Positions 999 through 28,548 of a stretch of DNA of 28,548 bases are shown here, piece after piece. Source of the DNA: Minisyncoccota bacterium (GTDB taxonomy: Bacteria; Patescibacteriota; Minisyncoccia; Phycocordibacterales; PALSA-1337); contig JBAZRG010000002.1 of assembly GCA_041663145.1 (NCBI GenBank), positions 158,618-187,165 of the forward strand. The letters run 5' to 3'. Each line of letters starts with the position of its first letter. Positions within the stretch are counted from its first letter, which is position 1. The notes beneath the pieces are model-generated. The model was not told the DNA's origin and ran no database searches. It saw only the letters and a list, made by a program, of their open reading frames with translations. The position numbers were made by a program, and so were the translations under genes.

Positions 999-3900
999 TT
1001 AGACTTCTTGTTCCATGCACCATGTTCTGGCGTTCTGAAACATATGAAGCCATGGTGAAGCCCCAAGTCTTTGCCAAGAGGCTGGCATCCATGGCCACTG
1101 CCACAAACGGAAACAACGCTCGGGATGAGGCATCATCGCTAGATGGCGACCATCAAGGGAACAGAGTGCTGTCATTCCACCCGGCGAACCGTTGGGGTTG
1201 TACGGGTATTCTTCCGTACGATTCCCATGTAGATCCAGATAAGCGAGAGGGGATAGTTTGGCCTTGATGACCTTATCTAGAATCGACTGATCTGGATAGA
1301 ATAGCCGACCTTCACCATGAGCAACCCATACGCCAAGTCTCGAACCTTCCATTCCGGAGAGAAGCACCGACGGGCTGGGCAGAATTTCCACCTGAACCCA
1401 TCGAGATTCGAATCTCTTCGAGATGTTGTGAATGAATCGTGGCTGCTTTTCACTTTCAATCATTCTCCATGGAATCCATCCGAGTAGTGCCATGAGTTGA
1501 CAGCCATTGCAGACGCCGAGCGAGAACGTATCTCGACGAGCGTAGAAACGGTCGAACATCTCTCGAAGCTTTGGGTTGAACAAGATCGCTCCTGCCCAGC
1601 CTTTGGCACTGTCGAATACATCCATATAGGAGAAACCTCCGGCGAATATGATGCCTTGGAATTGATCCAAGTTGATCCTGTCTTCGAGGAGATCACTCAT
1701 CGCAACATCCCATGGAGCAAGACCGCCGGCCAAACAAGCAGCCTGCATCTCACGATCTCCATTCGTACCTTCTTCACGGATGACTGCCACTCGTGGCTTG
1801 TCGGCCGCATTTAGGATGTCTGGGGTAGTGTTTTTGGGTTCGAATGAAAGCCTGTAACCGAGATGTCCCAGATCGTTTCGATCGGTGTGGTTGTGGCCAA
1901 AGTATTCAACCTTGGCACATTGGGGATTCATCTGAAGTTTTTCGATCTCATAGCTTGTGGATTCCCACCACGTGCGTAATTGTTCGGTTGAGGTTAAGAA
2001 TGTCTTACCTCCTCCGTGAATCGCACATGTAGTACCTGGAAGCGTGATACCGATTTCGCATATCTCAATTCCGTAGAATGAACATATTTCCCCAATCCTA
2101 CATAGAGCCTCTCTTTCGAATTCCAAGATAAGACCGAGTTCTTCGTTGAAAAGCTCTGCAAGTAGGTCTATGTCCTTTCCAAGAGCCAATCTGAATCCGC
2201 AATAGCTTGCCATGCACATCTCGGCAACTGCGGTTATGAGGCCACCGTCACTTCGGTCGTGCATAGCTAGGATGAGATCTTCACCGATCATTTGTTGGAT
2301 CGCAAGGAATGCATTCTTGAGGAGTTTCGGATCATCAACATCGGGTGTTTCGTCGCCAAGCTGATTGAAGGCTTGAGCAAGAGCTGAACCACCCAAACGA
2401 CATTTGTGGTGCAAGACACCTTGAGTGTCGAGTCTTCCGCTTAGGTCAATCAATCCAAGCATGCTCTCACCTGGCATCTTGATGTCGGGTGTAACTTTCT
2501 TAGTGATATCGGGTACGGGTGCGTAACCGAGTATGACGAGACTTCCTGGAGCCTTAACGAGTTCTCCCTGAACCGTTGCCGCCATAGAAAGGCTATCTTT
2601 GCCTCCGTCAACTGCGATACCAAGTTCGACCATTAGGTCGGACATGGCAACCGCAGCATCGTAGAGGAGAACTCCTTCATGTGGCAGTTTGGCTGGATAC
2701 ATCCAGTTGGCACGACAGCGAATGTCGTTAATGCCACTGACTTTGACACTGGCCATGTTGGTGAGCATTTCTGCTACAGCCAGACGAGCACCAGCCTTTT
2801 CGTCGATGAGCATTTTTATCGGCTGTTCGCCGACCGCACTTACCGCCCCGGTCAGACCGAAGTGGCTTTGCGCGTTAACACTGTTGTCGGCGATCGGGAT
2901 CTGGGCTATACCACAGCATTGCTGCTGTGCTACCAGTCCCGTGACGCTCCGGTCCACCTTATGAACCAGGTAACCTTTCGAACCGACCGAGGGAAGCTTG
3001 AAGACTTTTTCGATAGCTTCTCCTACGGTTATCTCTGGCAGATCCAAGGGTTTGAGCTCCTTGGTCTTCCGTGCTGATTCGAAAGTCTTCTGAGGCATGT
3101 TCGTGAGAACCTGCTCCAGATTGAGGTCAACAGGTGTGTGTCCGTTTGTGGAATCTTCAACGACAACCTTATGATTGCCGGTTATTTCTCCGAGAACTTC
3201 GCAGTTCACTCGTTCCCGCTTGCAGATCGACTGAAAGAGTCCGATCTGTTCAGGTCTGATCAGGAGGCCGTATCCTTCTTGGAATTCAGCACTCCAGATC
3301 TTGAGGACCGACATGGTCTTGTCGCCAAGCACGATCTTCCGGATATTGATAGTTCCGCCGAGCGGCTCCAGTAGTTCCGTAAGAACATTGCTCGGACCGC
3401 CGGCTCCCTGGTCGTGAATGCTCGAGATGGGATTCTTATCTCCCATTTCGATGCAGGCTCGGATAACGCGATTCGCTCGATTTTCCATCTCTGCGTTGCC
3501 ACGTTGGACGGAATTGAAATCGAGCGTATCGGTATTTTGACCCTGCATCATGCTGGAGGCGCTTCCGCCACCGACACCGATAGGGTAGGCAGGTCCGCCG
3601 ATGCGGACGATCTTCATGCCGACTTCCGGCGTCTCTTTTGCGAGATGCTGGTCAAACAAATGACCAATACCACCGCTGTAGAGAATAGGCTTGCGTGGCT
3701 CGCGCCATTCACCATCGACGATCTGACCGAAGGTTCGACAGAATCCCAGTGTGAGTGGTTCGCCGAATTGATTGCCATAACTCGATACGCCGTTGCTACC
3801 CTCGATGAGGATCGAAAGCGGCGAAGCATACTTGGAAGGCTTATCACGGCCGACTACCTCTTCCGGTATTTCATAACCCTGAATGAAGAGATTGCCGACG

Positions 3901-4856
3901 AAGTAGCCCGCGACGCCGATACCGGTCCAACCACCACGGCCGACCGCCGTGTTGTCGCGGATCCGACCTCCGGAGCCTGTTTGGGCACCGGGGAACGGGG
4001 CGACGAATGTCGGATGATTATGAGTCTCTGCGGTCGCGGTGATGTGAACCACTCTGTCGCAAATTCTCATTTCAGAAGGTTCGCCTGGCGCAAGTGGCAG
4101 GATCAGACTAGTTCTGTATCCCTGGACAGCGCCGGCATTGTCCCTGAAGGCGATGAGGCCGACTCGGTCCATCTCCTCGAGGCAAATAAGCGGATGCTGG
4201 ACGATCTCCATTAGTGTGCGTTTCATCGGCACGCCGTCGATGACGATCTGACCTTTGAAGTACCAGTGACGGCTATGCTCGCTGTTGGCGTTGCCGAGCT
4301 GAAAGAGCTCGACATCAGTCGGGTTCCTTTTGAGGATCTCCGCAAAAAGGTGATAATAATATTCGATGTCCTTAGCATCCATGCCAAGGCCTAGAGTAGA
4401 GTTCATTTCCTCGAGAGCTATTCTTCCACGACCCATGAGGTCAATGGTTCTGACTTCTTCTGGTGTCTCCCCAGTGTTAAAGGATTTGATTCCTTCTCGC
4501 AAACGTTGCTCGGTCATGCGATCAAGGTGAGCCTTGAGGATTGTATCACTTGATTGTCCGTCGCCCATCAAATAACGATGGGTACGTTCGATACGCGTGA
4601 TTTGCCGTAAATCCATTGAGTGACATATCGAGACAGCATTCGAAGAGAACGGAGTCTCGATCGAAAGCCGAGGCCCGATCTCGACAATTTCTCTTGTTCG
4701 GAAATGTGGTTCAAATCCGGTTTTATTCGGTTCGAAAGTTTCTGCGATGAGCCATTGAAGTTGACTAATATCCTGAGTCGACAGTTGGCCTGTGGTTTCA
4801 ACGTAGAAACCAAGTTCCAGGCCACTGCTGATCCGACGATATATGCTATAGATCAT
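999..4856 (-). CDS. purL: Phosphoribosylformylglycinamidine (FGAM) synthase, large single-chain type
   Basis: 1285 aa. It has the N-terminal PurL linker domain, duplicated AIR-synthase-related (PurM-like) domains and a C-terminal class I glutamine amidotransferase with the GVCNGCQLM nucleophile motif. AGGAGA SD lies upstream of the ATG at 4856. Confidence 0.95.
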   Translation of the reverse strand: MIYSIYRRISSGLELGFYVETTGQLSTQDISQLQWLIAETFEPNKTGFEPHFRTREIVEIGPRLSIETPFSSNAVSICHSMDLRQITRIERTHRYLMGDGQSSDTILKAHLDRMTEQRLREGIKSFNTGETPEEVRTIDLMGRGRIALEEMNSTLGLGMDAKDIEYYYHLFAEILKRNPTDVELFQLGNANSEHSRHWYFKGQIVIDGVPMKRTLMEIVQHPLICLEEMDRVGLIAFRDNAGAVQGYRTSLILPLAPGEPSEMRICDRVVHITATAETHNHPTFVAPFPGAQTGSGGRIRDNTAVGRGGWTGIGVAGYFVGNLFIQGYEIPEEVVGRDKPSKYASPLSILIEGSNGVSSYGNQFGEPLTLGFCRTFGQIVDGEWREPRKPILYSGGIGHLFDQHLAKETPEVGMKIVRIGGPAYPIGVGGGSASSMMQGQNTDTLDFNSVQRGNAEMENRANRVIRACIEMGDKNPISSIHDQGAGGPSNVLTELLEPLGGTINIRKIVLGDKTMSVLKIWSAEFQEGYGLLIRPEQIGLFQSICKRERVNCEVLGEITGNHKVVVEDSTNGHTPVDLNLEQVLTNMPQKTFESARKTKELKPLDLPEITVGEAIEKVFKLPSVGSKGYLVHKVDRSVTGLVAQQQCCGIAQIPIADNSVNAQSHFGLTGAVSAVGEQPIKMLIDEKAGARLAVAEMLTNMASVKVSGINDIRCRANWMYPAKLPHEGVLLYDAAVAMSDLMVELGIAVDGGKDSLSMAATVQGELVKAPGSLVILGYAPVPDITKKVTPDIKMPGESMLGLIDLSGRLDTQGVLHHKCRLGGSALAQAFNQLGDETPDVDDPKLLKNAFLAIQQMIGEDLILAMHDRSDGGLITAVAEMCMASYCGFRLALGKDIDLLAELFNEELGLILEFEREALCRIGEICSFYGIEICEIGITLPGTTCAIHGGGKTFLTSTEQLRTWWESTSYEIEKLQMNPQCAKVEYFGHNHTDRNDLGHLGYRLSFEPKNTTPDILNAADKPRVAVIREEGTNGDREMQAACLAGGLAPWDVAMSDLLEDRINLDQFQGIIFAGGFSYMDVFDSAKGWAGAILFNPKLREMFDRFYARRDTFSLGVCNGCQLMALLGWIPWRMIESEKQPRFIHNISKRFESRWVQVEILPSPSVLLSGMEGSRLGVWVAHGEGRLFYPDQSILDKVIKAKLSPLAYLDLHGNRTEEYPYNPNGSPGGMTALCSLDGRHLAMMPHPERCFRLWQWPWMPASWQRLGASPWLHMFQNARTWCMEQEV

Positions 4857-5078: not shown

Positions 5079-5411
5079 ATGGGTAGGAAAGTCCCGAGTT
5101 TTTATGGTCCGCATGTGAGACGGATATCTCTCAGGAAGTCAAAATATGGACATCGGACCAGCGTAAACAAATATGCGCATCTGGTGCCCAAGAGAGATAA
5201 TGGATACGATCCATATGACAAGACATTTCGTGATCTTCCGATCATTGGGATGTTGAATGAGACGATCGAAGCAGGGTTACGTGTAACCTTTCATGATCGC
5301 CTCTACGCACTGATTGCAGATACAACTATTCCACCAACCGCACCTCATGCAATCGGAGTTCCAAATAAATTTCAAGGCATTGGTAGATTCAAACTCGTTA
5401 CCTATTTGTGA
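5079..5411 (+). CDS. Hypothetical protein, 110 aa
   Basis: ORF with AAAGAGAAAGG upstream. It has no recognisable motif and is GC-richer than its neighbours. Confidence 0.45.
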   Translation: MGRKVPSFYGPHVRRISLRKSKYGHRTSVNKYAHLVPKRDNGYDPYDKTFRDLPIIGMLNETIEAGLRVTFHDRLYALIADTTIPPTAPHAIGVPNKFQGIGRFKLVTYL

Positions 5412-5426
5412 TAATACTTGATCGTG

Positions 5427-5454
5427 AACGCGTATCCTAAAGGGTCGCGTTTTT
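5427..5454 (+). terminator. Weak hairpin plus T-tract after ORF 5079-5411
   Basis: AACGCG(5427-5432) ... CGCGTT(5446-5451) followed by TTTT. The stem is only 6 bp. Confidence 0.3.
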
Positions 5455-5467
5455 ATTATGATCAAAT

Positions 5468-5628
5468 ATGAATAGAGAGCTCGGCAAACATCGTTCTCAC
5501 ACAACACACAAGGTCACCCACTCCAAATTGCAACCGTATTAGAGCAGATGGAACTACTCTAATACGGGCAATTTGTTCGGGGTTCAAATCACATTGTGTG
5601 TTGTGTGAGAACAATGTTCACCGAGCTT
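5468..5628 (+). repeat. Long hairpin element, copy A, about 160 nt: semi-conserved outer stem, copy-specific inner stem, conserved 87-nt core
   Basis: GAGCTCGG...CCGAGCTT termini; inner arms TCACACAACACACA / TGTGTGTTGTGTGA; core AGGTCACCCACTCCAAATTGCAACCGTATTAGAGCAGATGGAACTACTCTAATACGGGCAATTTGTTCGGGGTTCAAATCACAT. The core matches copy B at 12336-12487 with 1 mismatch and contains an 11-bp internal hairpin CCGTATTAGAG/CTCTAATACGG. Confidence 0.75.
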
Positions 5629-5719
5629 GAACAGAGCCTTGTTTATAATGACTATTAGATTTACAATTATTTTGAATATATTCCATTGATCAATACAGCA
5701 ATCTTATCCAGATAATTTT

Positions 5720-6181
5720 ATGAGAACCATCAACAGAGAGATCGTATCGGCACACGTTTACTCAAGCGACGGTAAATTACTCATGGCAAGAAACAACAAT
5801 CCTGTCTCCGGTGTAGTGTATGGCGATTGTTGGAAGATACCTGGTGGTGGAGTGGAACAGGGAGAGACACAATTACAGACTCTTATTCGAGAGGTAAAAG
5901 AGGAGGTGGGTATCGATATAGCCAAATTTCCAGCTGAATTGGTGGGCGGCATCATGACAGGTGAATCGGAGAAAACACTTCGTGAAACCGGAGAGCGAGT
6001 ACTGGCTAAGATGAGATTCTTTACTTACAAAGTAATTTTAGACAAACCCGTCGCGCAAGTATCGGTGACTCTAGAGCTACATGAATTCAATGAATATAAA
6101 TGGGTCGATCTGTCAGAGTTGAAAACACTTAAACTTAGCCCGCCATCTATTGAGTTGTTTACTAAATTGGGTTTTATATAA
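5720..6181 (+). CDS. Nudix hydrolase
   Basis: Nudix box GGGVEQGETQLQTLIREVKEEVGI (Gx5Ex7REUxEExGU). Confidence 0.8.
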   Translation: MRTINREIVSAHVYSSDGKLLMARNNNPVSGVVYGDCWKIPGGGVEQGETQLQTLIREVKEEVGIDIAKFPAELVGGIMTGESEKTLRETGERVLAKMRFFTYKVILDKPVAQVSVTLELHEFNEYKWVDLSELKTLKLSPPSIELFTKLGFI

Positions 6182-6376
6182 AAGGAGATATGTTATTTTT
6201 AGGAAGAATAATACGTCTAGGTGTTTCCTTATTAGTATGGTAATATACTCATGTAAGTAAAGGGCTTTATTACTAGCGTTTGATGTCTTTTCTAAAGTAT
6301 GTACAATGATACGTCTCAAGCTCACAGTGCATTTTCAGGGTCGTATGACTGAACGCAATATTGATAAACTACATTC

Positions 6377-6613
6377 ATGAAATTCAATTACGATACAATA
6401 GCAGACGCAGCGTATCTAAATGTCGGCGAAGGCAAAGTGGCAAAAACTGTAGAAATGAAAAATGGTGTTGTTGTTGATCTGAATGAAAAAGGGAACATTT
6501 TAGGCATTGAAATTCTTAATTTTTCCGCACAACAGAGCATATCGAAACTTCAAGAGTCAGTGAAAGAGGGAATGCCAATCCAAATAACTTCAGGTACTCC
6601 GGTAACAGCATAA
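6377..6613 (+). CDS. DUF2283 family small protein (YuzE-like)
   Basis: MKFNYDTIADAAYLNVGEGKVAKTVEMKNGVVVDLNEKGNILGIEIL is the typical DUF2283 pattern (KxxYDxxADALYI...G.IxGIEIL). There is no adjacent DUF4258 partner. Confidence 0.6.
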   Translation: MKFNYDTIADAAYLNVGEGKVAKTVEMKNGVVVDLNEKGNILGIEILNFSAQQSISKLQESVKEGMPIQITSGTPVTA

Positions 6614-6648
6614 TCGATAAATGTGGAGTCGGCGGTATACTATAAAAC

Positions 6649-7155
6649 ATGCCAACCTATCCAGCTAAAACCGCCGATAATAAGTGCATATTCTGTGAAA
6701 TCGGATCTGGGAGAATGGAGACCACTTCTTTTTGGGAAGATGCGGAGTTCATGGCTTTTCTATCCATCGATCCCAATACAGATGGATTCTCCTGCGTGAT
6801 TCCGAAAGAACATTTTGGAAGCGATGTATTGAAGATGCCTGATGATGCCCTGCAAAGATTCATCATAGCCAGCAAGAGAGTAGCCAAGATTCTCGAGGAT
6901 TATTATGAAGATGTCGGACGAGTCGGTCTCGTCATGGAGGGTACCGGCATCGATCATGCGCATGTGAAGCTCGTACCGATGCACGATACTCAAGACCTCA
7001 AAAATGGAGGATGGAGGCAGTTTCTCTCAGGCAAGGAACACTGGTTTCCAAAATATGAGGGTTGGATATCTTCGGCTAGTGGACCGAAAGCCGATCCTCA
7101 AAAACTGGAAGAGCTCGCTTCAAAAATCAAGGAATCTCAGAATAAGAAAAGTTAA
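6649..7155 (+). CDS. HIT-family-like protein with a variant histidine triad
   Basis: N-terminal CIFCEI and AFLSIDPNTDGFSCVIPKEH follow the HIT fold pattern. The triad region reads IDHAHVKLVP, i.e. HxHxK rather than HxHxH. There is a ~50-aa C-terminal extension. Confidence 0.6.
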   Translation: MPTYPAKTADNKCIFCEIGSGRMETTSFWEDAEFMAFLSIDPNTDGFSCVIPKEHFGSDVLKMPDDALQRFIIASKRVAKILEDYYEDVGRVGLVMEGTGIDHAHVKLVPMHDTQDLKNGGWRQFLSGKEHWFPKYEGWISSASGPKADPQKLEELASKIKESQNKKS

Positions 7156-7239
7156 TGTTTCTTTGCGCGTGTCCTTGTGTTGATTATGTTCATAAAAATG
7201 ATAGCATAGGTATAAATAATCAACTGATTTACAACATTT

Positions 7240-8421
7240 ATGAACATTAATACCGAGCAAAATAAAATTGACGAGCTATTGACTCGTGGAGTCGAAGAAG
7301 TGATCGAAAAAGATCATCTAGAAAAACAATTGAAAAGCGGAAAATGTCTGCGCGTGAAGCTCGGCATAGATCCGACTAGTCCAAATGTTCATATTGGTCG
7401 TGCTGTACCACTATTGAAGCTTCGAGATTTTCAAGAATTGGGACACAAGATCGTTTTCATCATAGGCGACTTTACCGGTGTGATCGGCGATACTTCTGAC
7501 AAAGACAGTGAAAGACCGATGTTATCCGAAGATATCGTAAAGGAAAATCTCAAGAGTTATATCGAACAGGTCAAGAAGATTATCGATATTGATAAATGCG
7601 AAGTTCACTACAATAGCGAATGGCTGGCAAAACTAGGTTATGGTGAGATCGGCAGACAGGCCGATGCTTTCTCACTCAATGAATTTATTTCCAGAGAAAA
7701 TATCAATAAAAGATTGGAGGGAGGTAAAAGAATATCTTTGCGTGAGCTCCTATATCCACTCATGCAAGGATATGATTCGGTTGCTATCAAAGCCGATGTT
7801 GAGATCGGCGGTACGGATCAGCGTTTCAATCTCTTGGCCGGCCGTGAACTGCAACGCAGTTACAAACAGGAACCGCAGGACATCATCACCAATCCACTCA
7901 TCGAAGGTTTGGATGGTAGGAAGATGAGCTCGAGTTGGGGTAATTCGATAAATCTTTTCGATTCGCCAGACGATATGTTCGGTAAGGTTATGTCGCTCAA
8001 GGACGAGTTTATTATAAAATACTTCATTTTGACGACTAGAGTCAGCATGTCCGAGATTGCGAAGTATGAAAAAGAATTGGCTGACGGAAACAATCCCAAG
8101 GATTACAAGATGAAACTGGCTTTTGAGATCGTCCAGTTCTACCATTCACTGGAGGAAGCGGAAAAAGCCAAGGAATATTTCATAAATACATTTAGCAAAA
8201 AAGAAACTCCGGAGGTTATGCCGGAGATCAAACCGAGCAATTACGATATTATAACCGTCATGGTCGAATCGGGTTTTTCTCCTAGCAAGTCCGAGGCGCG
8301 ACGTCTGGTAGAGCAGGGAGGAGTAAAAGTCAATGAAGCAGTCATGGTTGATCCGAAGAAGATCATTGAGAAGAATGATGTCCTTCAGAAAGGAAAGAGG
8401 TTTTTTCTGAAAGTTATCTGA
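7240..8421 (+). CDS. tyrS: Tyrosyl-tRNA synthetase
   Basis: Class I HIGH-like motif (PNVHIGRAV), KMSSS (KMSKS), a GxDxxxxH connective region and a C-terminal S4 RNA-binding domain (SKSEARRLVEQGGVKVN). Confidence 0.85.
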   Translation: MNINTEQNKIDELLTRGVEEVIEKDHLEKQLKSGKCLRVKLGIDPTSPNVHIGRAVPLLKLRDFQELGHKIVFIIGDFTGVIGDTSDKDSERPMLSEDIVKENLKSYIEQVKKIIDIDKCEVHYNSEWLAKLGYGEIGRQADAFSLNEFISRENINKRLEGGKRISLRELLYPLMQGYDSVAIKADVEIGGTDQRFNLLAGRELQRSYKQEPQDIITNPLIEGLDGRKMSSSWGNSINLFDSPDDMFGKVMSLKDEFIIKYFILTTRVSMSEIAKYEKELADGNNPKDYKMKLAFEIVQFYHSLEEAEKAKEYFINTFSKKETPEVMPEIKPSNYDIITVMVESGFSPSKSEARRLVEQGGVKVNEAVMVDPKKIIEKNDVLQKGKRFFLKVI

Positions 8422-8530
8422 TGAACAATTGTGATGTTAGTATTAGAGAGATGGGCATATCAATAGAGCACACAACGGAGATTGTCAAAAAATTTAGTAA
8501 ATTAAATTATTAGTTAACAGCAATAAATAA

Positions 8531-9085
8531 ATGAAAAAAACTTTAATAATCATTGGTGTAATATTGTTAGTTGTGGTTTTGTATCTATTCGCAGCTTATA
8601 ACGGTCTCGTTGGACTAGATGAAAAAGTCACCGGACAATGGGCTCAAGTCGAATCTCAATATCAGCGACGCTTCGATCTCATTCCCAATCTCGTAGAATC
8701 TGTAAAGGGGATAATGAATCAAGAACAGGAAGTGTTCGGTGCCATAGCTGATGCTCGTGCAAACTATGCCGGTGCCAAAACAGTTGATGAAAAAGCTCAA
8801 GCGGCAGGTCAGGTCGAAAGTGCTCTCGGAAGATTGCTCGTCATCACGGAGAATTATCCAGCATTACAGTCGTCGGCAACCGTTCAGAATCTGATGACTC
8901 AGATCGAAGGTACTGAAAACCGCATTTCAACCGAAAGAAAGCGTTATAACGACACGGTTCAAATATACAATGTGAGGATAAAGAGATTTCCAGGATCGAT
9001 AGTCGCTTCAATGTTCAGTTTTGGTGAACGTTCATACTTCGAATCGGTAGAAGGTTCGGAGCTCGCACCTCAGGTCCAATTCTAA
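8531..9085 (+). CDS. lemA: LemA family protein
   Basis: N-terminal TM helix followed by the LemA signature (AAYNGLVGLDEKVTGQWAQVESQYQRRFDLIPNLV...NYPALQSSATVQNLMTQIEGTENRISTERKRYNDTVQIYN). Confidence 0.85.
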   Translation: MKKTLIIIGVILLVVVLYLFAAYNGLVGLDEKVTGQWAQVESQYQRRFDLIPNLVESVKGIMNQEQEVFGAIADARANYAGAKTVDEKAQAAGQVESALGRLLVITENYPALQSSATVQNLMTQIEGTENRISTERKRYNDTVQIYNVRIKRFPGSIVASMFSFGERSYFESVEGSELAPQVQF

Positions 9086-9996
9086 TGACAATAAATAAGG
9101 CAACAGGAAGAAGAATTGTATTTGTTCTTGCTTTTATTGTCTTTATCGTACCTACATTTACAAATGCCTATGAGAGTCCCGGAAGCCCAACTGGTTTTGT
9201 AAGTGATTTTGCGAATATGTTGAGTACCGAAGAACGTGCGACGATTGAAGCAAAAATTTCTCAGTTCGAAAAAGATACAACAAATGAAATTGCAGTCGTT
9301 ACGATTTCGACATTGGGAGATGATACGATAGAGGAATATGCAGTTGCATTATTTGCTGATTGGAAGATTGGTAAAGATGAATTTGATAATGGAGTTTTAC
9401 TTCTGGTTTCGAAAGAAGGTAGGAAGGTCCGAATAGAAGTAGGATATGGTCTCGAAGGTGCCATTACAGATATTGCCAGTGCTTCTATAATAGATGATAT
9501 TTTCATTCCAGAATTTAAGGCTGGAAATTATTACTCAGGAATAGATAAATCCGTTGATGCCATTATGATGGCGTCTAAAGGAGAATATGTACCAGTAGAT
9601 AATTCTTCGTTCTCGCTCGAAACTGTATGGGAGATGATTATTAATTTCGGTTTATTCATTTTATTACCGTTACTGTGGGTGACTAGCATATTGGCACGAT
9701 CGAAATCTTGGTGGGCCGGAGGGGTATTGGGTGGACTTTTGGCAGTTATTCTCGGATCGGTCACTACCGCTATATCTGTGATTACAGCACTCATAGTCCT
9801 CATACCGGTCGGACTCCTTTTTGATTTTATAGTTTCAAGTGTTTATAAAAACGATTTGAATAAAGGTAAAAGACATCCATGGTGGATTGGTGGTGGAGGT
9901 TTGGGACATGGTGGTGGTTCATTTGGTGGTAGTGGGGGATTTGGCGGATTCGGTGGCGGTTCCTCAGGTGGTGGCGGATCTAGTGGAAGCTGGTAA
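9085..9996 (+). CDS. TPM-domain (YgcG-like) membrane protein with a glycine-rich C-terminal tail
   Basis: The start overlaps the lemA stop (TAATGA), consistent with the conserved LemA-TPM pair. It has a TPM phosphatase-like domain (SDFANMLSTEERATIEAKI...IAVVTI...GVLLLVSKEGRKVRIEVGYGLEG), two TM segments and a GGGSFGGSGGFGGFGGGSSGGGGSSG tail. Confidence 0.8.
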   Translation: MTINKATGRRIVFVLAFIVFIVPTFTNAYESPGSPTGFVSDFANMLSTEERATIEAKISQFEKDTTNEIAVVTISTLGDDTIEEYAVALFADWKIGKDEFDNGVLLLVSKEGRKVRIEVGYGLEGAITDIASASIIDDIFIPEFKAGNYYSGIDKSVDAIMMASKGEYVPVDNSSFSLETVWEMIINFGLFILLPLLWVTSILARSKSWWAGGVLGGLLAVILGSVTTAISVITALIVLIPVGLLFDFIVSSVYKNDLNKGKRHPWWIGGGGLGHGGGSFGGSGGFGGFGGGSSGGGGSSGSW

Positions 9997-10057
9997 TCTG
10001 GATGTCAGAGTGTGATAGAATGTAAAAAAGTGATTTTATAAATTTAACTATAAAAAT

Positions 10058-10210
10058 ATGCTTACAACAATTGCAGTAGTATTTGTAGCTCTATGGCTTC
10101 TCGGTGTAGTCGGAGTGTATACGATCGGTTGGTTTATTCATGTTCTATTAGTTGTAGCGGTTATCATGGTTCTTGTTAGGATTATTCGCGGTAAGAATCC
10201 TATTCAATAA
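10058..10210 (+). CDS. Lmo0937-family small membrane protein, 50 aa; missed by the ORF track
   Basis: Translation MLTTIAVVFVALWLLGVVGVYTIGWFIHVLLVVAVIMVLVRIIRGKNPIQ. Its length, two-helix layout and LWLLG...GG/W.IH.LLV.A.I..L....RG motif match the widespread lmo0937 family. Confidence 0.55.
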   Translation: MLTTIAVVFVALWLLGVVGVYTIGWFIHVLLVVAVIMVLVRIIRGKNPIQ

Positions 10211-10279
10211 AGTCACAAAATTATCAGGATACTTTTTTGAAAATGGCCGAAAAAGCGGAAAATGAACTAAACACACATC

Positions 10280-11005
10280 ATGATCATAATCATAGCCATA
10301 GCGACTTTCTTTTCAACCTTGATCGGTGGTTTGGTTGCCCTGCACCTCAAAGATAAGTTACACCTGGTTATCGGTTTTAGCGCCGGTGCTGTTATCGGTG
10401 TGGCATTTTTTGATCTGATTCCAGAATCGATAGAGCTCGGTTCGAAATTTTATGAAGTGGGGACGGTGACGTCGATCATTGCTTTGGGTTTTATCATATA
10501 CCTTGTCTTGGATCGATTGATATTTTTGCATATTCACGAACATGCCGAAGGGGAGGCTGAAGTCCATGAGTACAGAGGCATCCTCGGTGCAGGCAGTTTG
10601 GCCACTCATAGTTTTATGGATGGTGTGGCTATCGGTCTAGCTTTCCAAGTCTCGACGTCAGTCGGGGCCATAGTTGCAGTGGCAGTTTTGGTGCATGATT
10701 TTTCTGATGGCATAAATACGGTTGGTATGATTTTGAAAAATAAGGGTGAAAGAAAAATCGCTCTGAAATGGTTGTTTGTCGATGCTCTGGCTCCGGTTCT
10801 GGGCGTGATTTCGACATTATTCTTTACATTACCTGAACGATCGTTTGGTATAGTACTGGCTCTATTTTCTGGTTTTTTCCTATATATCGGAGCAAGCGAT
10901 CTCATACCCGAAAGTCATCATGCTCACCCAAAATTCCTCACAACGGCTATGACTATACTCGGAGTAGGAGTCCTCTATGTAGCTATTCGACTGGCGGGCA
11001 TCTGA
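10280..11005 (+). CDS. ZIP family metal (Zn/Fe) transporter, ZupT-like
   Basis: Multi-pass membrane protein with a His-rich loop (HIHEHAEGEAEVHEY) and the ZIP signature helices (HSFMDGVAIGLAF, HDFSDGINTV). Confidence 0.8.
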   Translation: MIIIIAIATFFSTLIGGLVALHLKDKLHLVIGFSAGAVIGVAFFDLIPESIELGSKFYEVGTVTSIIALGFIIYLVLDRLIFLHIHEHAEGEAEVHEYRGILGAGSLATHSFMDGVAIGLAFQVSTSVGAIVAVAVLVHDFSDGINTVGMILKNKGERKIALKWLFVDALAPVLGVISTLFFTLPERSFGIVLALFSGFFLYIGASDLIPESHHAHPKFLTTAMTILGVGVLYVAIRLAGI

Positions 11006-11007
11006 TA

Positions 11008-11036
11008 TTGACTTTTTTCGCTAGATAATATATAGT
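11008..11036 (+). promoter_or_regulatory. Sigma70-type promoter for the DEAD-box helicase gene
   Basis: TTGACT (11008-11013), exact 17-nt spacer, TATAGT (11031-11036), about 40 nt upstream of the ATG at 11077. Confidence 0.5.
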
Positions 11037-11076
11037 TAGAGGAATACAGGAATGCTCCTGCACGTGGAAATCAGTC

Positions 11077-12321
11077 ATGTATCAAAAACATTTTAGAAGC
11101 GCCGGCCCTAGCGGTCAGCCTAAACAATTTAACTATAGAGGAAAGCCCGCTAGTAAAGGCGGTTTTTCTAGTGGTCATGGCAGGAGATTTGGCGGAGGTT
11201 CAGGACGTGGCGGTTTTTCCAAACACATAGACGTCTCGAAATTCATCAATAAGGCAGTCATCACTGAAAAAGTCGAGCATTATGTTCCTGAACATTCTTT
11301 TGCCGATTTTGCCATTGATAATCATCTAAAGACGAATATTGCTACAAAATCCTACTATGTCCCAACTCCTATCCAAGACAAAGCCATTCCGCACATTCTC
11401 CGTGGTTCGGATCTAGTCGGCATAGCAAATACAGGTACAGGTAAGACTGCAGCATTCCTCATACCACTTATCGACAAGGTCATAAAGTCTCCGAGTGAGA
11501 GAGTCCTCATCATTGTTCCGACTCGTGAGCTATCTCAGCAAATAGAAAGTGAATTGCGCGGCTTTACCACACATCTGCGTATTGCATCTGTATCGTGTGT
11601 CGGTGGTGCTGGCATAGGATTTCAGATCAAGTCTCTTTCTATGAGACCACAGTTCGTCATTGGTACACCAGGTAGATTGCGAGATCTCATAGATCGCAAA
11701 CGTATCGATCTTTCTCAGTTTTCTACGGTCGTTCTAGATGAAGCAGATCGAATGCTCGATATGGGATTTATCGGTGAGGTCAAGTTTATGGTTTCCAAAA
11801 TGTCGGCCAAAAGACATACGTTGTTCTTTTCGGCGACGATGTCAAAAGAGATAGAGACTCTGATTTCGCAATTTCTCACCAATCCCGTAATGATCTCTGT
11901 AAAGACGGGCGATACACCTTCGGCAGTAGACCAAGATGTTGTCCGAGTACCTATGGGCAAAAATAAGTTTGATATTTTGACCGATATGTTGAAGCAGTCC
12001 GGTTTCGATAAAATCCTGATTTTCGGCAAGACAAAGCATGGAGTCCAAAAATTGGCTGATCAACTAGCCAAGCTCGGTTTCAAAGCGGAGTCCATCCACG
12101 GTAATAAGAGTCAACCTCAAAGAGCTCGGGCCCTCAATCTTTTCAAGGAACATCATATGAAGATCTTGGTTGCCACGGACGTTGCGGCGAGAGGACTCGA
12201 CATCTCCGGAGTTTCTCACGTCATCAACTACGACATCCCCGCTACCTATGAAGACTATGTGCATCGCATCGGCAGAACTGGAAGAGCTGGAAAGAAGGGT
12301 AAGGCACTGACTTTTGTGTAA
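11077..12321 (+). CDS. DEAD-box ATP-dependent RNA helicase with an N-terminal RGG/Gly-rich region
   Basis: Q-motif, Walker A ANTGTGKT, PTRELSQQ, VLDEADRMLDMGF (DEAD box), SAT and HRIGRTGRAGKKG (motif VI). The ORF ends only 9 aa after motif VI, directly before repeat copy B. Confidence 0.9.
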   Translation: MYQKHFRSAGPSGQPKQFNYRGKPASKGGFSSGHGRRFGGGSGRGGFSKHIDVSKFINKAVITEKVEHYVPEHSFADFAIDNHLKTNIATKSYYVPTPIQDKAIPHILRGSDLVGIANTGTGKTAAFLIPLIDKVIKSPSERVLIIVPTRELSQQIESELRGFTTHLRIASVSCVGGAGIGFQIKSLSMRPQFVIGTPGRLRDLIDRKRIDLSQFSTVVLDEADRMLDMGFIGEVKFMVSKMSAKRHTLFFSATMSKEIETLISQFLTNPVMISVKTGDTPSAVDQDVVRVPMGKNKFDILTDMLKQSGFDKILIFGKTKHGVQKLADQLAKLGFKAESIHGNKSQPQRARALNLFKEHHMKILVATDVAARGLDISGVSHVINYDIPATYEDYVHRIGRTGRAGKKGKALTFV

Positions 12322-12335
12322 TAGGGTTATTATAA

Positions 12336-12487
12336 GAGCTCGGTGAATATTGTTTCAGAGCGACTCGCAAGGTCACCCGCTCCAAATTGCAACCGTATTA
12401 GAGCAGATGGAACTACTCTAATACGGGCAATTTGTTCGGGGTTCAAATCACATTGCGAGTCGCTCTGAAACAATATTCACCGAGCTC
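12336..12487 (+). repeat. Long hairpin element, copy B, 152 nt
   Basis: The outer and inner stem is a perfect 34-bp inverted repeat (GAGCTCGGTGAATATTGTTTCAGAGCGACTCGCA / TGCGAGTCGCTCTGAAACAATATTCACCGAGCTC). The 87-nt core matches copy A with a single A/G difference. Confidence 0.75.
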
Positions 12488-12548
12488 TTATTACACTCTT
12501 ATTAGAATGATTTACTACTCATTTTTTATATTGTAACATTGAAAGATT

Positions 12549-14380: not shown

Positions 14381-14532
14381 CATTACCCCGACACAATATT
14401 CCCAGAACAATCCGAGTATGCGATTGAGCTTCGATAAATTACCCGTGTTTGGTGAAGCCTTGGAACCAAACACGGTTGTAATTTGAGAAGCGATTACGCA
14501 GGATTGTGGCGGGAATATTGTGTCGGGGGTAA
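14381..14532 (+). repeat. Long rod-like hairpin element C, about 150 nt
   Basis: Outer arms ATTACCCCGACACAATATTCCC-AGAA-CAATCC (14381-14412) and GGATTGTGGCGGGAATATTGTGTCGGGGGTAAT (14500-14532) are near-perfect reverse complements. The interior holds a nested stem AAATTAC-CCGTGTTTGGT / ACCAAACACGG-TTGTAATTT. It lies between the ABC transporter stop and the PIF1 helicase start. Confidence 0.55.
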
Positions 14533-17899: not shown

Positions 17900-18095
17900 T
17901 ATGTGTTATATTTCTGGCATACCTATGATCCGGCAGACACCGGTGAGGTGAAGAAAGAAAGCCATCCTTTGATTGGTTAGTAGAATCTTCCGGTAGTGCT
18001 CCGATATGCAGAAATGAAGAAAAAAACAGGGTGGCACCGCGACAAAATCGCCCCTGCGGATTTATTAAAATTAATGAATTCGGAGGGGTGTTTTT
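17900..18095 (+). promoter_or_regulatory. T-box riboswitch leader with intrinsic terminator upstream of the AspRS paralog
   Basis: Canonical T-box sequence AACAGGGTGGCACCGCG (18026-18041; consensus AGGGTGGNACCGCG, with the bulge UGGC matching tRNA 3' GCCA and discriminator G as in tRNA-Asp/Asn). It is immediately followed by the terminator CCCCTGCGGA(18051-18060)...TTCGGAGGGG(18079-18088)+TGTTTTT. The ATG is at 18139. Stem I and the specifier were not resolved by eye, so the 5' boundary is approximate. Confidence 0.7.
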
Positions 18096-18138
18096 ATTTA
18101 CAGCAAGTAGGTGGGACATTTCTTCGAACACAAGTACC

Positions 18139-19467
18139 ATGCAAAGAACATATATAAGAGATCTAAAAGAGTTTATAGGTAAAGAAATTAGCATTTCAGG
18201 ATATGTCGATGTACGTCGCAATCAAGGTAAGATGGTGTTTTTCGAATTTCGCGATCGGACGGGCAAGATACAGGGGGTGGTACTTCCTAATAATTCAGAA
18301 GCTCTTGAATCTTCCAAAGAAATACGTTCGGAATGGGTTGTAGAAATAATTGGCATCGTAAATAAACGTCCGCAAAAGAACATTCAAGCCGGAAAGATGA
18401 ACGGGGATATCGAACTTGAGATTAAACATATTAATGTCCTTGGAATAGCCAAAGAACTTCCGTTTGAAAAAGATTCTGAGATTAACATCGATACGTATCT
18501 CGATTACCTTCCACTCACTCTTCGAAGTCAAACACACACGACCGTCTTCAAAGTTCAGGCAGTTATTGCTAAGGCCTTCAGAGACTTCTTTACAAAAGAG
18601 GGTTTTACGGAATTTCAAGCACCGAAATTAATTGGTGATGATGCCGAAGGTGGGGCGAACTCTTTTGATGTTACATATTTCAAACATATCGCACATTTGG
18701 CTCAAAGTCCCCAGTTATATAAACAGATCATGGTCGGCGTATTTGAACGTGTTTTTTCTGTCGGAAACGTATATCGTGCGGAGAAGCATAGTACAACGCG
18801 TCATCTCAATGAATATACCAGTCTAGACATGGAAATGGGCTATATTAAAGATCATTATGATGTCATGAATTCTGAAAATCAATTTTTGCAATATCTTGAA
18901 AATGTTCTTCGTGCCTCTTGTGTTGATGATTTTGCCTTGCTCGGTGCCACTATACCAACGGTCCCGAAAGAAATTCCAAAATTGACCTTACGCGAAGCTC
19001 AAACACTTATCACAACAGATACCGGTAAAGATTGTACAAATGATCCGGATCTTGAGCCTGAACATGAAAGATGGCTTTGTAAGTATGCCGAGAAGAATTT
19101 TAATTCCGACTTTATTTTCGTCACTAATTTTCCGACAGCTAAGCGACCGTTCTATACTTATAGAGATGAAAAAGATCCAACATATACTAAAGGTTTTGAC
19201 CTGCTCTTTCGTGGTGTAGAAATCACTACTGGTGCGCAACGCATCCATAACTACGACGACCTTGTTAGTTCCATGAAAGAGAAGAAGCTTGATCCTGAAA
19301 AGTTCAAATATTATCTTCAAGCTTTCAAATATGGCATGCCTCCACACGGAGGTCTAGGACTTGGGTTGGAGCGCATCACGGCAAAGCTTCTTGGTCTAGA
19401 AAATATCAAGGAAGCCACTCTTTTCCCGAGAGATATTAACAGGATCGATAACCTATTGTCAGAATAG
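18139..19467 (+). CDS. Class IIb aspartyl-tRNA synthetase paralog (archaeal/eukaryotic type), AT-rich copy
   Basis: Start moved to 18139 (MQRTYIRDL...) downstream of the T-box terminator. N-terminal OB anticodon-binding domain; flipping-loop motif LAQSPQLYKQ (AspRS-type QSPQ); motif 2 YRAEKHSTTRHLNEYTSLDME; motif 3 GGLGLGLERITAKLLGLENIKEATLFPRD. GC is far lower than the second copy at 23312. Confidence 0.8.
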   Translation: MQRTYIRDLKEFIGKEISISGYVDVRRNQGKMVFFEFRDRTGKIQGVVLPNNSEALESSKEIRSEWVVEIIGIVNKRPQKNIQAGKMNGDIELEIKHINVLGIAKELPFEKDSEINIDTYLDYLPLTLRSQTHTTVFKVQAVIAKAFRDFFTKEGFTEFQAPKLIGDDAEGGANSFDVTYFKHIAHLAQSPQLYKQIMVGVFERVFSVGNVYRAEKHSTTRHLNEYTSLDMEMGYIKDHYDVMNSENQFLQYLENVLRASCVDDFALLGATIPTVPKEIPKLTLREAQTLITTDTGKDCTNDPDLEPEHERWLCKYAEKNFNSDFIFVTNFPTAKRPFYTYRDEKDPTYTKGFDLLFRGVEITTGAQRIHNYDDLVSSMKEKKLDPEKFKYYLQAFKYGMPPHGGLGLGLERITAKLLGLENIKEATLFPRDINRIDNLLSE

Positions 19468-19503: not shown

Positions 19504-20241
19504 ATGTATAAACAAGGAATAGAGGTAAAAAGAGAAACAAATTTTGGGATTATTCTTGAGAAGTCCTCATGGTTTTCAATTGTCGAATCTCTTTTCCCGA
19601 AAAGTGAGCGAATCTATTATCCAAATGATCAGGATGAGGTGTTACATATAATCGTGGATGATATTGACATCGCTTTTATCTCTGGTCAAGGTTCAAGCAT
19701 GGTCGCGTGCATGACTGAAAGATTAAGAGTATATGGATCAAAGGCAATAATTAGAATTGGGACATGTGGAGCATTATCGCAAGAAATAAAACTATGGTGT
19801 CCAATTATTACGACAGCATGTTTTAGTAGCGAAGGTACCTCAAAGCATTACTTACCGTGCGGCTATCCTATTATATCTGACTTTAATCTGAATACCCTCC
19901 TCATTAAAAAATTAATTAAAGGAGGTGTTGATTACCAACAAGGTATTACATTAACAACAGATGGTAGATGGCGAGAAGATCCGGTATTGCTCAAACAATT
20001 ATGTCAGCTGGGGGTTATTTCTATTGAAATGGAAACGGCGGCAATTTTATCAGTTTGTCAGTTTAGAAAATTACCTGCAGCTGCAATAAATATTCCAACT
20101 GATTTACCAGCAGACGAGGAAAGTGAAGAAGATTTTAAGGGCATACCAAATCGAGAAACTTATGAATCAGATTTGAGAAAATGTTTAATGAAAATCATTC
20201 CTTTTGCAGTGGAGACCTTAAAAGATTTATATCATAAATAA
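19504..20241 (+). CDS. PNP_UDP_1 family protein, MTA/SAH-nucleosidase-like (Mtn-like)
   Basis: IIRIGTCGALSQ corresponds to the substrate-binding GSAGG loop (NTGSAGG) of MtnN. LTTDGRW carries the catalytic Asp. ISIEMETAAILSVCQ matches the VEMEATAIAHVC motif. It sits 36 nt after the AspRS paralog stop. Confidence 0.6.
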   Translation: MYKQGIEVKRETNFGIILEKSSWFSIVESLFPKSERIYYPNDQDEVLHIIVDDIDIAFISGQGSSMVACMTERLRVYGSKAIIRIGTCGALSQEIKLWCPIITTACFSSEGTSKHYLPCGYPIISDFNLNTLLIKKLIKGGVDYQQGITLTTDGRWREDPVLLKQLCQLGVISIEMETAAILSVCQFRKLPAAAINIPTDLPADEESEEDFKGIPNRETYESDLRKCLMKIIPFAVETLKDLYHK

Positions 20242-20250
20242 ATCAAACAA

Positions 20251-20877: not shown

Positions 20878-20881
20878 TTAT

Positions 20882-22960: not shown

Positions 22961-23197
22961 TTGAGACTGATGGGATATTCACGGCTTTATCGGTAGCATT
23001 ATTATAAAGAAAGCCATTCGTGGCAACTAGGATATTTAATTACAAGATGACTGATCTATTTCAGTTTATTCAAGATATGGATATCAGAAAAGATAGCTAT
23101 TTTTTCATTGTATGTGGTGAAGTGTCTCCGAGCTATCGAACTCAAGCGGCTTCAAAAGCTGACTAACCTCACATACATATTGCACTCATTAAAAAGC

Positions 23198-27366: not shown

Positions 27367-27368
27367 TT

Positions 27369-27537
27369 CGTAACCCCCACAACACCCTCATTTGTTTTCC
27401 TCGAACTCTGCTCACAATATACCAACATTTTCACAAAGGATGCGCTACAAGGATTCGCGCATCCTTTGGAAAATGTGTTGGTATATTATTTCGCAGATTA
27501 TTCTCGGAATACAAATGAGGGTGTTGTGGGGGTTACG
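27369..27537 (+). repeat. Long rod-like hairpin element D, about 169 nt
   Basis: Terminal arms CGTAACCCCCACAACACCCTCATTTGT / ACAAATGAGGGTGTTGTGGGGGTTACG are perfect reverse complements (27 bp). There is an inner near-perfect hairpin AATATACCAACA..AAAGGATGCGC-loop-GCGCATCCTTT..TGTTGGTATATT. It begins 3 nt after the stop of the Cas4-like gene. Confidence 0.55.
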
Positions 27538-27653
27538 AAGACTAGTAATGACATCATGGAATGCATAGTGTAAGATATTTCTGTATCCGAGTACTTTAAA
27601 AAGTTTTTCACTCACCCACAAAGAGAGTATTCGATATAGAAAGATGTACCAAT

Positions 27654-28358: not shown

Positions 28359-28548
28359 ATTCATAGATAATTCGTAACCACACACATCATTCTTTTTTCT
28401 TCCTAGAATATTTTGCGAACTTGATATTGAACCCCGAATAACTCACACCTGTCCCTAATAAGACTCCGCAAGTACTTTTCAGCAACCATGAAAGGTGTGG
28501 ACAACCAAGTAATTTAAACGTGTTTGGAACTTCTGATATACTTTCCTT

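What the first reader, a model, noticed from the sequence alone, without database searches (positions are those of the whole stretch)
5468..12487. Two copies of a ~155-nt hairpin element: identical 87-nt core, different but self-complementary inner stems
Copy A (5468-5628) and copy B (12336-12487) share an 87-nt core with 1 mismatch. The core contains a perfect 11-bp hairpin (CCGTATTAGAG..CTCTAATACGG) nested in a CAAATTGC/GCAATTTG stem, and the GAGCTCGG/CCGAGCT termini are similar. The 13-14 nt inner arms are completely different between copies (A: TCACACAACACACA/TGTGTGTTGTGTGA; B: AGAGCGACTCGCA/TGCGAGTCGCTCT), yet each pairs perfectly with its own partner arm. That is compensatory covariation, which points to selection on a long hairpin (RNA or cruciform DNA) rather than on the arm sequence. 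Transposase-recognised TIRs (MITE-like) would instead be conserved in sequence. Both copies sit immediately 3' of + strand genes (ORF 5079-5411 and the DEAD-box helicase). Candidate roles are a structured sRNA, a 3' mRNA-stabilising or terminator element, or the target or guide of an unknown mobile system. The variable arm could even be a specificity module.
Basis: seen in the sequence. Interest (0 to 1): 0.8.

Follow-up and report, generated by a model that had tools for sequence, protein, structure and literature searches.

The report
Hairpin repeat family in a CPR bacterium
The two 150-base hairpin copies are real and belong to a small family of palindromic, probably mobile, intergenic repeats in an uncultured Paceibacterota (CPR) genome; their stems change in matched pairs, which is interesting but has precedent in bacterial miniature mobile elements.

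Summary
Copy A (5478-5627) and copy B (12337-12486) are each exactly 150 nt. They share an 88-nt centre with one mismatch and identical 7-9-nt termini. In the arms, 10 base pairs are changed on both sides, none on one side only, and 3 are broken, all in A.

A covariance model built from A and B finds a third, diverged copy, C (14386-14528), on the opposite strand. Its inner hairpin carries 5 more compensated pairs. Two further elements, D (27367-27539) and partial E (from 28371), share short modules with A, B and C.

The host is a Candidatus Paceibacterota MAG with no close relative in any collection searched. Related CPR genomes are also rich in long hairpin elements with the same layout: a conserved asymmetric centre and differing, self-complementary arms.

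The best reading is a non-autonomous, MITE/REPIN-like element family that depends on hairpin formation. Supporting points are that copies lie in both orientations, all are intergenic, direct repeats flank A (8 of 9) and B (7 of 8), and the site of C is empty in a relative.

A structured-RNA role and DNA-level palindrome correction are not excluded. Why the centres are near-identical while the arms differ by about 50% is unexplained. No copy was found in public collections, and no transposase is in view.

The parts
5478..5627 (+). Copy A, 150 nt. It has a 34-bp outer stem with 3 C.A mismatches, an asymmetric internal loop, an 8-bp stem, an AA bulge, an 11-bp stem and a 12-nt loop.
5469..5477 (.). 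Left copy of the 9-bp direct repeat flanking A (TGAATAGAG). Candidate target-site duplication.
   Evidence: 8 of 9 match, placed exactly at the inverted-repeat ends
5628..5636 (.). Right copy of the 9-bp direct repeat flanking A (TGAACAGAG).
5427..5454 (+). Terminator-like hairpin plus T-run, lying between ORF 5079-5411 and copy A. It is not part of the element and shows that A is not that gene's terminator.
12337..12486 (+). Copy B, 150 nt. The palindrome is perfect over 39-nt arms (12332-12491). B starts 15 nt after the stop codon of the DEAD-box helicase gene and ends 62 nt before the ABC transporter start codon.
12327..12334 (.). Left copy of an 8-bp direct repeat (TTATTATA), seen when B's limits are taken as 12335-12487. 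Weak candidate target-site duplication.
   Evidence: 7 of 8 match, found only after trying offsets in AT-rich flanks
12488..12495 (.). Right copy of that direct repeat (TTATTACA).
5509..5596 (+). The 88-nt centre shared by A and B (12368-12455 in B), with one mismatch at 5520.
14386..14528 (-). Copy C, 143 nt. A diverged family member in the opposite orientation. Its inner hairpin is homologous to that of A and B, the AA bulge is kept, and 5 pairs are compensated.
27367..27539 (.). Element D, a 173-nt long hairpin. It shares a 16-nt module with C (14 of 16) and the 8-mer CACAACAC with A's arm. Distant relative or sister family.
28371..28548 (.). Element E, which runs off the window. Its terminus TTCGTAACC and subterminal block match D. 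Its internal TTATTCGGGGTTCAATATCA (reverse complement) matches the right internal loop of A and B at 19 of 20.

Best explanation
A, B and C are copies of a small, non-coding, non-autonomous palindromic element. It is MITE/REPIN-like and has spread within the chromosome of an uncultured Candidatus Paceibacterota (CPR) bacterium.

What is shown:
- Copies are dispersed, intergenic and in both orientations.
- The termini and an asymmetric centre are conserved.
- The stems stay complementary while their sequence changes.

What is inferred:
- The element moves or is copied through a folded single strand, DNA or possibly RNA.
- In that fold, a protein supplied in trans recognises the centre (8-bp stem, AA bulge, 11-bp stem, flanking asymmetric loop) and the 7-9-nt termini.
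- The 25-nt stem segment between them needs only to pair.
- Its complementarity is kept by that requirement, helped by intrastrand template-switch correction.

On this reading B, with a perfect 39-bp stem, is a young copy. A, with three uncompensated transitions, is decaying. C is old.
For: - There are three homologous copies, in intergenic gaps between unrelated genes, in two orientations.
- The model scores C at 55 bits on the minus strand against 28.7 on the plus strand. D, an equally good hairpin, scores 43 and 39, so the match to C is sequence-specific.
- An 8-of-9 direct repeat of 9 bp lies exactly at A's ends, and a 7-of-8 repeat of 8 bp lies near B's ends.
- In relative L004 the ABC transporter and Pif1 genes are 36 nt apart with no hairpin. 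In the window they are 262 nt apart and C lies between them.
- A, B, C, D and E share short modules in a mosaic pattern.
- No ORF is conserved across the copies, and there is no Rfam or tRNA match.
- Long hairpins number 4 per 28.5 kb here, 19 per 869 kb in CPR relatives, 1 per 316 kb in non-CPR loci and 0 in shuffles.
- An unrelated multi-copy hairpin family in Staskawiczbacteria-like relatives has the same layout. It lies at non-orthologous sites, and 20 of 58 pairs are compensated among 3 aligned copies from 3 different MAGs.
- The AA bulge and the asymmetric loop persist across diverged copies. Simple palindrome homogenisation would erase them.
- There is published precedent for compensated hairpins in mobile repeats.
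Against: - No transposase or recombinase gene lies in the window.
- Only three clear copies are visible.
- Three exact patterns found no copy in the genome, metagenome or viral collections. No single pattern was run on all three: two were run on the metagenome collection and all three on the viral collection, but only the first on the genome collection.
- C and D have no flanking direct repeat, and B's is weak.
- The best-conserved part is the centre, not the terminal inverted repeats, which is unusual for a DDE-type MITE.
- No presence/absence polymorphism could be shown at the A or B sites, because the nearest relative has only 69% protein identity.
Confidence: 0.55

Rival explanations
1. 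It is a structured RNA. The hairpin would be transcribed, either as part of the flanking mRNAs (an intercistronic or 3' stabiliser, or an RNase III site) or as its own sRNA. Selection on the RNA fold would then explain the compensated stems and the conserved asymmetric centre.
For: - A conserved centre with covarying helices is the classic signature of an RNA family.
- A and B lie in the same orientation as all neighbouring genes.
- B starts 15 nt after a stop codon with no terminator in between, so it is probably co-transcribed.
- All four transition-type mismatches in A are C.A on the plus strand, which means G.U on the minus strand. The minus-strand RNA folds better, at -95.2 against -80.2 kcal/mol.
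Against: - C is inverted relative to the same gene direction.
- A sits behind a terminator-like hairpin.
- There is not one G.U pair among 122 pair cells on the plus strand. The strand favoured by wobble pairs is antisense to every nearby gene.
- Across 28 long hairpins in this clade, stem mismatches show no wobble enrichment: 14 G.T, 19 A.C and 32 other.
- There is no Rfam match.
Confidence: 0.2
2. The near-identical centre and the divergent arms have separate histories. Either the centre was recently copied between older, diverged palindromes (by gene conversion or by insertion into their middle), or B's arm block was replaced by module exchange with another family member. This addresses the centre-versus-arm contrast and is compatible with the best explanation.
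For: - The centre matches at 87 of 88 positions while the arm block differs at 13 of 24. Uniform drift cannot give that contrast.
- A, B, C, D and E share modules in a mosaic pattern.
- A's CA-rich arm resembles the arms of C, D and E, and shares the 8-mer CACAACAC with D only. B's arm is the odd one out.
- A and B are 6.9 kb apart in direct orientation.
Against: - No 'empty' palindrome and no centre without arms was found in the 32 kb available.
- The arm block aligns without gaps and with a transition bias, as expected for descent rather than replacement.
- The Staskawiczbacteria-like family shows the same layout in many copies, which suggests constraint rather than accident.
Confidence: 0.25
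3. These are passive DNA palindromes. Inverted duplications would be created and kept perfect by replication template switching, with no mobility and no function.
For: - Template switching can create stems and repair their pairing in one step (PMC8794818).
- All compensated pairs are Watson-Crick, with no wobble intermediates.
- Spacer-less perfect palindromes of 48-50 nt occur in relatives.
Against: - It does not explain three dispersed homologous copies, the conserved termini, the direct repeat flanking A, or the conserved bulge and asymmetric loop.
Confidence: 0.08
4. It is a structure-specific recombination site (attC-like) or a guide-bearing element, in which the variable stem block sets target specificity for an unknown system.
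For: - The recognition features look structural: an extrahelical AA, an unpaired centre and variable stems.
Against: - There are no RYYYAAC/GTTRRRY boxes at the hairpin base.
- The neighbours are housekeeping genes, not cassettes, and no integrase is present.
- The arm sequences match nothing else in the window or in viral contigs.
- A guide locked inside a perfect duplex has no known precedent (own knowledge).
Confidence: 0.05

Closest known systems
REPINs (REP doublets forming hairpins; Bertels and Rainey 2011, PMC3116915)
   Same: Both are non-autonomous intergenic elements of about 100-150 nt that fold into one long hairpin. In REPINs, compensatory changes on the two sides of the hairpin are reported as common, and a single-stranded folded intermediate is proposed.
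   Different: In REPINs the conserved parts are the two REP ends and the variable part is the spacer. Here the centre and the outermost 7-9 nt are conserved and the stem between them varies. There are no GTAG/CGTC-tagged REPs, no RAYT gene is in view, and A has a 9-bp flanking direct repeat.
bcr1 of the Bacillus cereus group, and other hairpin-folding bacterial MITEs (Correia/NEMIS, ERIC, RUP), as reviewed by Delihas 2011, PMC3184786
   Same: bcr1 is about 155 bp, flanked by short direct repeats, located at non-conserved genomic sites, and carries base-pair compensatory changes that keep a double-stranded structure.
   Different: The host phylum is different. The duplication here would be 8-9 bp rather than 5 bp (bcr1) or TA (Correia; own knowledge). 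Transcription is unknown.
Integron attC sites (own knowledge)
   Same: attC sites are defined by a folded single strand: variable self-complementary stems, extrahelical bases, an unpaired centre and short conserved ends.
   Different: Here there are no R/L boxes, no cassette array and no integrase, and the centre is conserved in sequence.
Hairpins maintained by template-switch mutation (Monttinen and Loytynoja 2022, PMC8794818)
   Same: That mechanism produces multi-base, perfectly compensated stem changes without wobble intermediates.
   Different: It is a mutational mechanism, not an element family. It does not account for dispersal, conserved termini or the conserved asymmetric centre.

Membership tests
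Bacterial MITE | Terminal inverted repeats | tested here: met
   AGAGCTCGG.../...CCGAGCT(CT) is identical in A and B. The arms are 34-39 nt and 91-100% complementary.
Bacterial MITE | Target-site duplication flanking each copy | tested here: inconclusive
   A has a 9-bp repeat matching 8 of 9 at its exact ends. B has an 8-bp repeat matching 7 of 8 only with shifted ends. C and D have none.
Bacterial MITE | Small, non-coding, and multi-copy at unrelated sites | tested here: met
   The elements are 143-150 nt with no conserved ORF. There are three copies in three different intergenic gaps. The genome-wide copy number is unknown.
Bacterial MITE | A parent IS or transposase with matching ends in the genome | not testable with these tools
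   Only 28.5 kb plus 3.7 kb of the genome is readable. No transposase lies in it. The source contig could not be fetched.
Bacterial MITE | Presence/absence polymorphism between related genomes | tested here: inconclusive
   The site of C is empty in L004, where the spacer is 36 nt against 262 nt here. The A and B sites are not syntenic in any relative, and the nearest relative has 69% protein identity.
REPIN / RAYT system | Two inverted REP sequences, each a short palindrome with a GTAG or CGTC tag | tested here: not met
   By direct reading, the termini are AGAGCTCGG (A and B) and CCCCGACAC (C). There is no GTAG/CGTC tag and the arms are not themselves palindromes.
REPIN / RAYT system | A RAYT (Y1 HUH transposase) gene in the genome | not testable with these tools
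   None is in the window. The rest of the genome is not available.
Integron attC site | R''/R' boxes (RYYYAAC ... GTTRRRY) at the hairpin base, a cassette array and an integrase | tested here: not met
   By direct reading, there is no GTTRRRY at the right end of either copy (the only GTT is GTTCACC in A). The neighbours are housekeeping genes.
Intrinsic terminator | A G+C-rich stem followed directly by a T-run | tested here: not met
   A is followed by TGAACAGAG and B by CTTATTACA. Neither is listed by the terminator scan. A separate terminator-like hairpin precedes A.
Any described RNA family (Rfam 15) or tRNA/tmRNA | A match at the family's gathering score | tested here: not met
   There are no matches at gathering score. 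The only E-value hit is a plant miRNA model at 20 bits against a threshold of 70. ARAGORN finds nothing.

The most novel reading that the evidence does not exclude
Paceibacteria-type CPR genomes carry a previously undescribed class of elements defined by structure rather than sequence. A conserved asymmetric centre would be presented on long stems that are free to covary, and a still unknown protein would recognise it as a folded single strand, in the manner of attC or IS200/IS605 ends. The variable stem block would serve as a lineage or specificity tag. The window family (A, B, C, with D and E as relatives) and the Staskawiczbacteria-like family would be two instances of this class.
Probability: 0.15. 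Interest if true: 0.75.

Novelty: new member of a known kind. Interest (0 to 1): 0.45.

Why it matters
CPR bacteria have very small, streamlined genomes, so selfish or structured repeats are not expected to be common in them. My two full-text searches found no description of MITE-like or palindromic repeats in this group. Here about 2.8% of a housekeeping region is long-hairpin elements, and relatives show the same habit.

If the elements are mobile, they mark an active transposition system in a lineage where few are known, and they explain why short-read assemblies break at these points. If the hairpins are instead functional RNAs or recombination sites, the conserved asymmetric centres are ready-made motifs for comparative analysis.

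The contrast between centre and arms also makes this a clean natural case for separating selection on structure from template-switch repair.

Tried and rejected
- **Exact-pattern scans for more copies.** The inner hairpin pattern found nothing in genome contigs, metagenome contigs or viral contigs. The loop-to-loop pattern found nothing in metagenome or viral contigs. The A/B/C consensus of the inner hairpin found nothing in viral contigs or in the 84 fetched loci. Even the source contig was not returned, so these collections do not hold, or they mask, the source.
- **Spurious ORFs.** Searching the protein database with the two open reading frames through the centre found nothing.
- **Fetching more of the genome.** Only short Logan contigs came back through window proteins. 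The 187-kb source contig was never served. The species is a singleton, with clusters of 1-2 members.
- **blastn-short** of A-D against 1.19 Mb of relatives' loci gave no homologues.
- **Arm blocks as guides.** There was no match elsewhere in the window at up to 4 mismatches, and no exact match in viral contigs.
- **Rfam, tRNA and promoter/terminator scans** gave nothing that explains the element.
- **Pfam, NCBIfam and PHROGs** on the unannotated neighbours ORF110 and ORF216 gave nothing.
- **G.U versus A.C counts to decide RNA against DNA.** The result is suggestive for the minus strand in A (4 to 0). It is not significant, and pooled hairpins from the clade do not support it. In the Staskawiczbacteria-like family the 28-to-9 bias is inflated because the same conserved core mismatches are counted in every copy.
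- **Larger duplicated block:** rejected.
- **Assembly artefact:** rejected. Both flanks are unique, and an independent assembly breaks at the predicted k-mer positions.

Full report
**Observation.** The two copies exist as described. The refined limits are A 5478-5627 and B 12337-12486, each exactly 150 nt. B's palindrome is perfect over 39-nt arms (12332-12491). An 88-nt centre (5509-5596 against 12368-12455) differs at one base, 5520. The outermost AGAGCTCGG/CCGAGCT are identical.

Between terminus and centre, the left arms differ at 13 of 24 positions, and 10 of those differences are transitions. The arms align without gaps, so they are diverged homologues and not unrelated sequence. Counted on the fold, 10 pairs are changed on both sides, 0 on one side only, and 3 are broken. 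All 3 broken pairs are in A's outer stem. No column shuffle out of 500 reaches these values, and sliding the partner destroys pairing.

Both strands fold far better than shuffles, as RNA or DNA, with z-scores from -10.8 to -18.6. Similarity stops at the element ends, so this is not part of a larger duplication.

An independent assembly of the same sample supports the structure. Logan contigs of SRR18595301 end at window 12361 and 5550. Each is one base short of the first 31-mer that would be repeated because of B's inverted arms or the centre shared by A and B. This argues against an assembly artefact.

**Host and setting.** The window is a housekeeping stretch: purL, tyrS, a DEAD-box helicase, an ABC transporter, Pif1, two class II aminoacyl-tRNA synthetases and others, almost all on the plus strand. 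It comes from an NCBI MAG named Candidatus Paceibacterota bacterium, on a 187-kb contig. The next most similar ABC transporter in 5.8 billion proteins is 69% identical, so there is no close relative to compare at the DNA level.

A lies 66 nt after ORF 5079-5411, behind a terminator-like hairpin with a T-run, and 92 nt before the NUDIX gene. B lies 15 nt after the helicase stop codon and 62 nt before the ABC transporter start codon. Neither hairpin is followed by a T-run.

**More members.** A covariance model built from A and B finds a third copy, C (14386-14528), on the minus strand. It scores 55 bits there against 28.7 bits on the plus strand. D, an equally good hairpin, scores about the same on both strands (43 and 39 bits). 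The match to C is therefore specific to sequence and orientation.

C keeps several features of A and B:
- the 8-bp stem;
- the AA bulge;
- the 11-bp stem, reading CAAATTaCAACCGTgTTtGgt...accAaACACGGGtAATTT (lower case marks bases that differ from A and B);
- part of the right-hand loop.

Read from the cmsearch alignment, five pairs in C are changed on both sides and one pair at the stem base is broken.

Local alignments with shuffle controls link the remaining elements:
- The right loop of A and B matches E in reverse complement at 19 of 20.
- C matches D at 14 of 16.
- D matches E at the terminus TTCGTAACC and a subterminal block.

The 8-mer CACAACAC occurs in the window only in the arms of A and D. 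Five related or mosaic hairpin elements therefore occupy about 2.8% of this window.

**The clade.** I fetched loci around the ABC transporter orthologue in 80 species. Long hairpins (arms of at least 24 nt, at least 85% paired, spacer of at least 40 nt) number:
- 4 per 28.5 kb in the window;
- 19 per 869 kb in CPR relatives;
- 1 per 316 kb in non-CPR loci;
- 0 in shuffles.

One family in Staskawiczbacteria-like MAGs has up to four copies within one 21-kb locus. It has a conserved asymmetric centre (AAATTCGCTATAATTT ... AAATTCTATCAAATTT). Its inner hairpin and outer arms differ between copies yet stay complementary. Among 3 aligned copies, 20 of 58 pairs are compensated. It has no Rfam match. 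The layout seen in A and B is therefore a recurrent design in this lineage.

**Mobile element or RNA?** The evidence for mobility is as follows:
- Copies lie in unrelated intergenic gaps and in both orientations.
- An 8-of-9 direct repeat of 9 bp sits exactly at A's ends. The chance of that at a fixed offset is about 1e-4. B has a 7-of-8 repeat of 8 bp only with slightly shifted ends, which is weak.
- In relative L004 the ABC transporter and Pif1 genes are 36 nt apart with no hairpin. Here they are 262 nt apart and C lies between them.
- The copies appear to differ in age. B is perfect, A carries three uncompensated transitions, and C is far diverged.

The evidence for an RNA role is weaker:
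- The conserved centre with covarying helices fits an RNA family.
- A's four transition mismatches would all be G.U on the minus strand, which folds better, at -95.2 against -80.2 kcal/mol.
- Against this, the minus strand is antisense to every nearby gene, and C is inverted.
- The plus strand has no G.U pair in 122 pair cells.
- Pooled hairpins of the clade show no wobble enrichment: 14 G.T, 19 A.C and 32 other.

Compensated change alone cannot decide the matter. It is reported as common in REPINs and in bcr1, and template switching can write both sides of a stem in one event. On the other hand, the AA bulge and the asymmetric loop persist across diverged copies. That argues against pure palindrome homogenisation and for recognition of a specific folded shape.

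**What remains unexplained.** The centres of A and B match at 87 of 88 positions, while the arm block differs by about half. Uniform drift, with or without palindrome correction, does not give that contrast. The options are:
- constraint limited to the centre and termini;
- gene conversion of the centre between copies 6.9 kb apart;
- exchange of arm modules within a mosaic family.

On the last option, A's CA-rich arm resembles those of C, D and E, and B's arm is the odd one out. The 32 kb available cannot separate these.

**Comparison with known systems.** The element works most like hairpin-forming miniature mobile repeats such as REPINs, bcr1 and Correia/ERIC-type MITEs. It fails the REPIN sequence criteria (no GTAG/CGTC REPs). 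It fails the attC criteria (no R boxes, cassettes or integrase). It fails the terminator test and matches no Rfam family. MITE criteria are met for inverted termini, size, lack of coding capacity and multiple copies. They are inconclusive for target duplications and for presence/absence polymorphism. The parent transposase cannot be tested here.

**Verdict.** The element is best filed as a new member of the known kind 'palindromic non-autonomous repeat', in a phylum where I found none described. Interest is moderate at 0.45. It would be higher if the whole-genome copy set shows recognition defined by structure or a functional RNA.

Noticed in passing
L009 1761-1923 and 8955-9093; L020 19806-19974, 20966-21123, 13536-13678 and 12845-12967(-); L016 753-915; L019 1728-1891(-); L028 2010-2129: A multi-copy long-hairpin family occurs in Staskawiczbacteria-like MAGs. 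It has a conserved asymmetric centre (AAATTCGC[T/A]ATAATTT ... AAATTCTATCAAATTT), a covarying inner hairpin, and subfamilies with different self-complementary outer arms. It has no Rfam match.
   Followed up: partly
L019 78-239 and L020 20487-20647: A second cross-species hairpin family has AATTTGAAATTT-type arms. Dinucleotide blocks (AC and GA) are swapped in both arms together, and the inner G+C-rich hairpin changes by compensated pairs.
   Followed up: partly
window 28371-28548: Element E runs off the window. The Logan contig L084 ends at window 28451, inside E, which suggests that E's interior is repeated elsewhere in the sample. E could be the end of a longer, possibly autonomous, element.
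   Followed up: partly
window 27654-28304: ORF216 has no family match in Pfam, NCBIfam or PHROGs. It sits between D's right end (GGTTACGAA) and E's left end (TTCGTAACC).
   Followed up: partly
window 1001-4000 and 20001-23000: Base composition is uneven. The purL region has 50-54% G+C. The methyltransferase and the 692-aa SHMT-like protein with a weak nucleotidyltransferase hit have 31-34% G+C. The rest of the window has about 40%. These may be acquired segments.
   Followed up: no
L051 3184-3231; L054 11859-11908; L047 16041-16090: Near-perfect palindromes of 48-50 nt with no spacer occur in CPR relatives. L051 and L054 are perfect, while L047 is 88% complementary. Structures like these are usually unstable in bacteria that have SbcCD (own knowledge).
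   Followed up: no
window 18031-19467 and 23312-24616: Two class II (D/K/N-type) aminoacyl-tRNA synthetase genes lie 4 kb apart.
   Followed up: no
window 10432-10440 and 12121-12129: The 9-mer AGAGCTCGG, which is the terminus of A and B, also occurs twice inside coding sequence on the plus strand, in the ZIP and helicase genes. About 0.2 occurrences would be expected by chance. No hairpin partner lies nearby.
   Followed up: no
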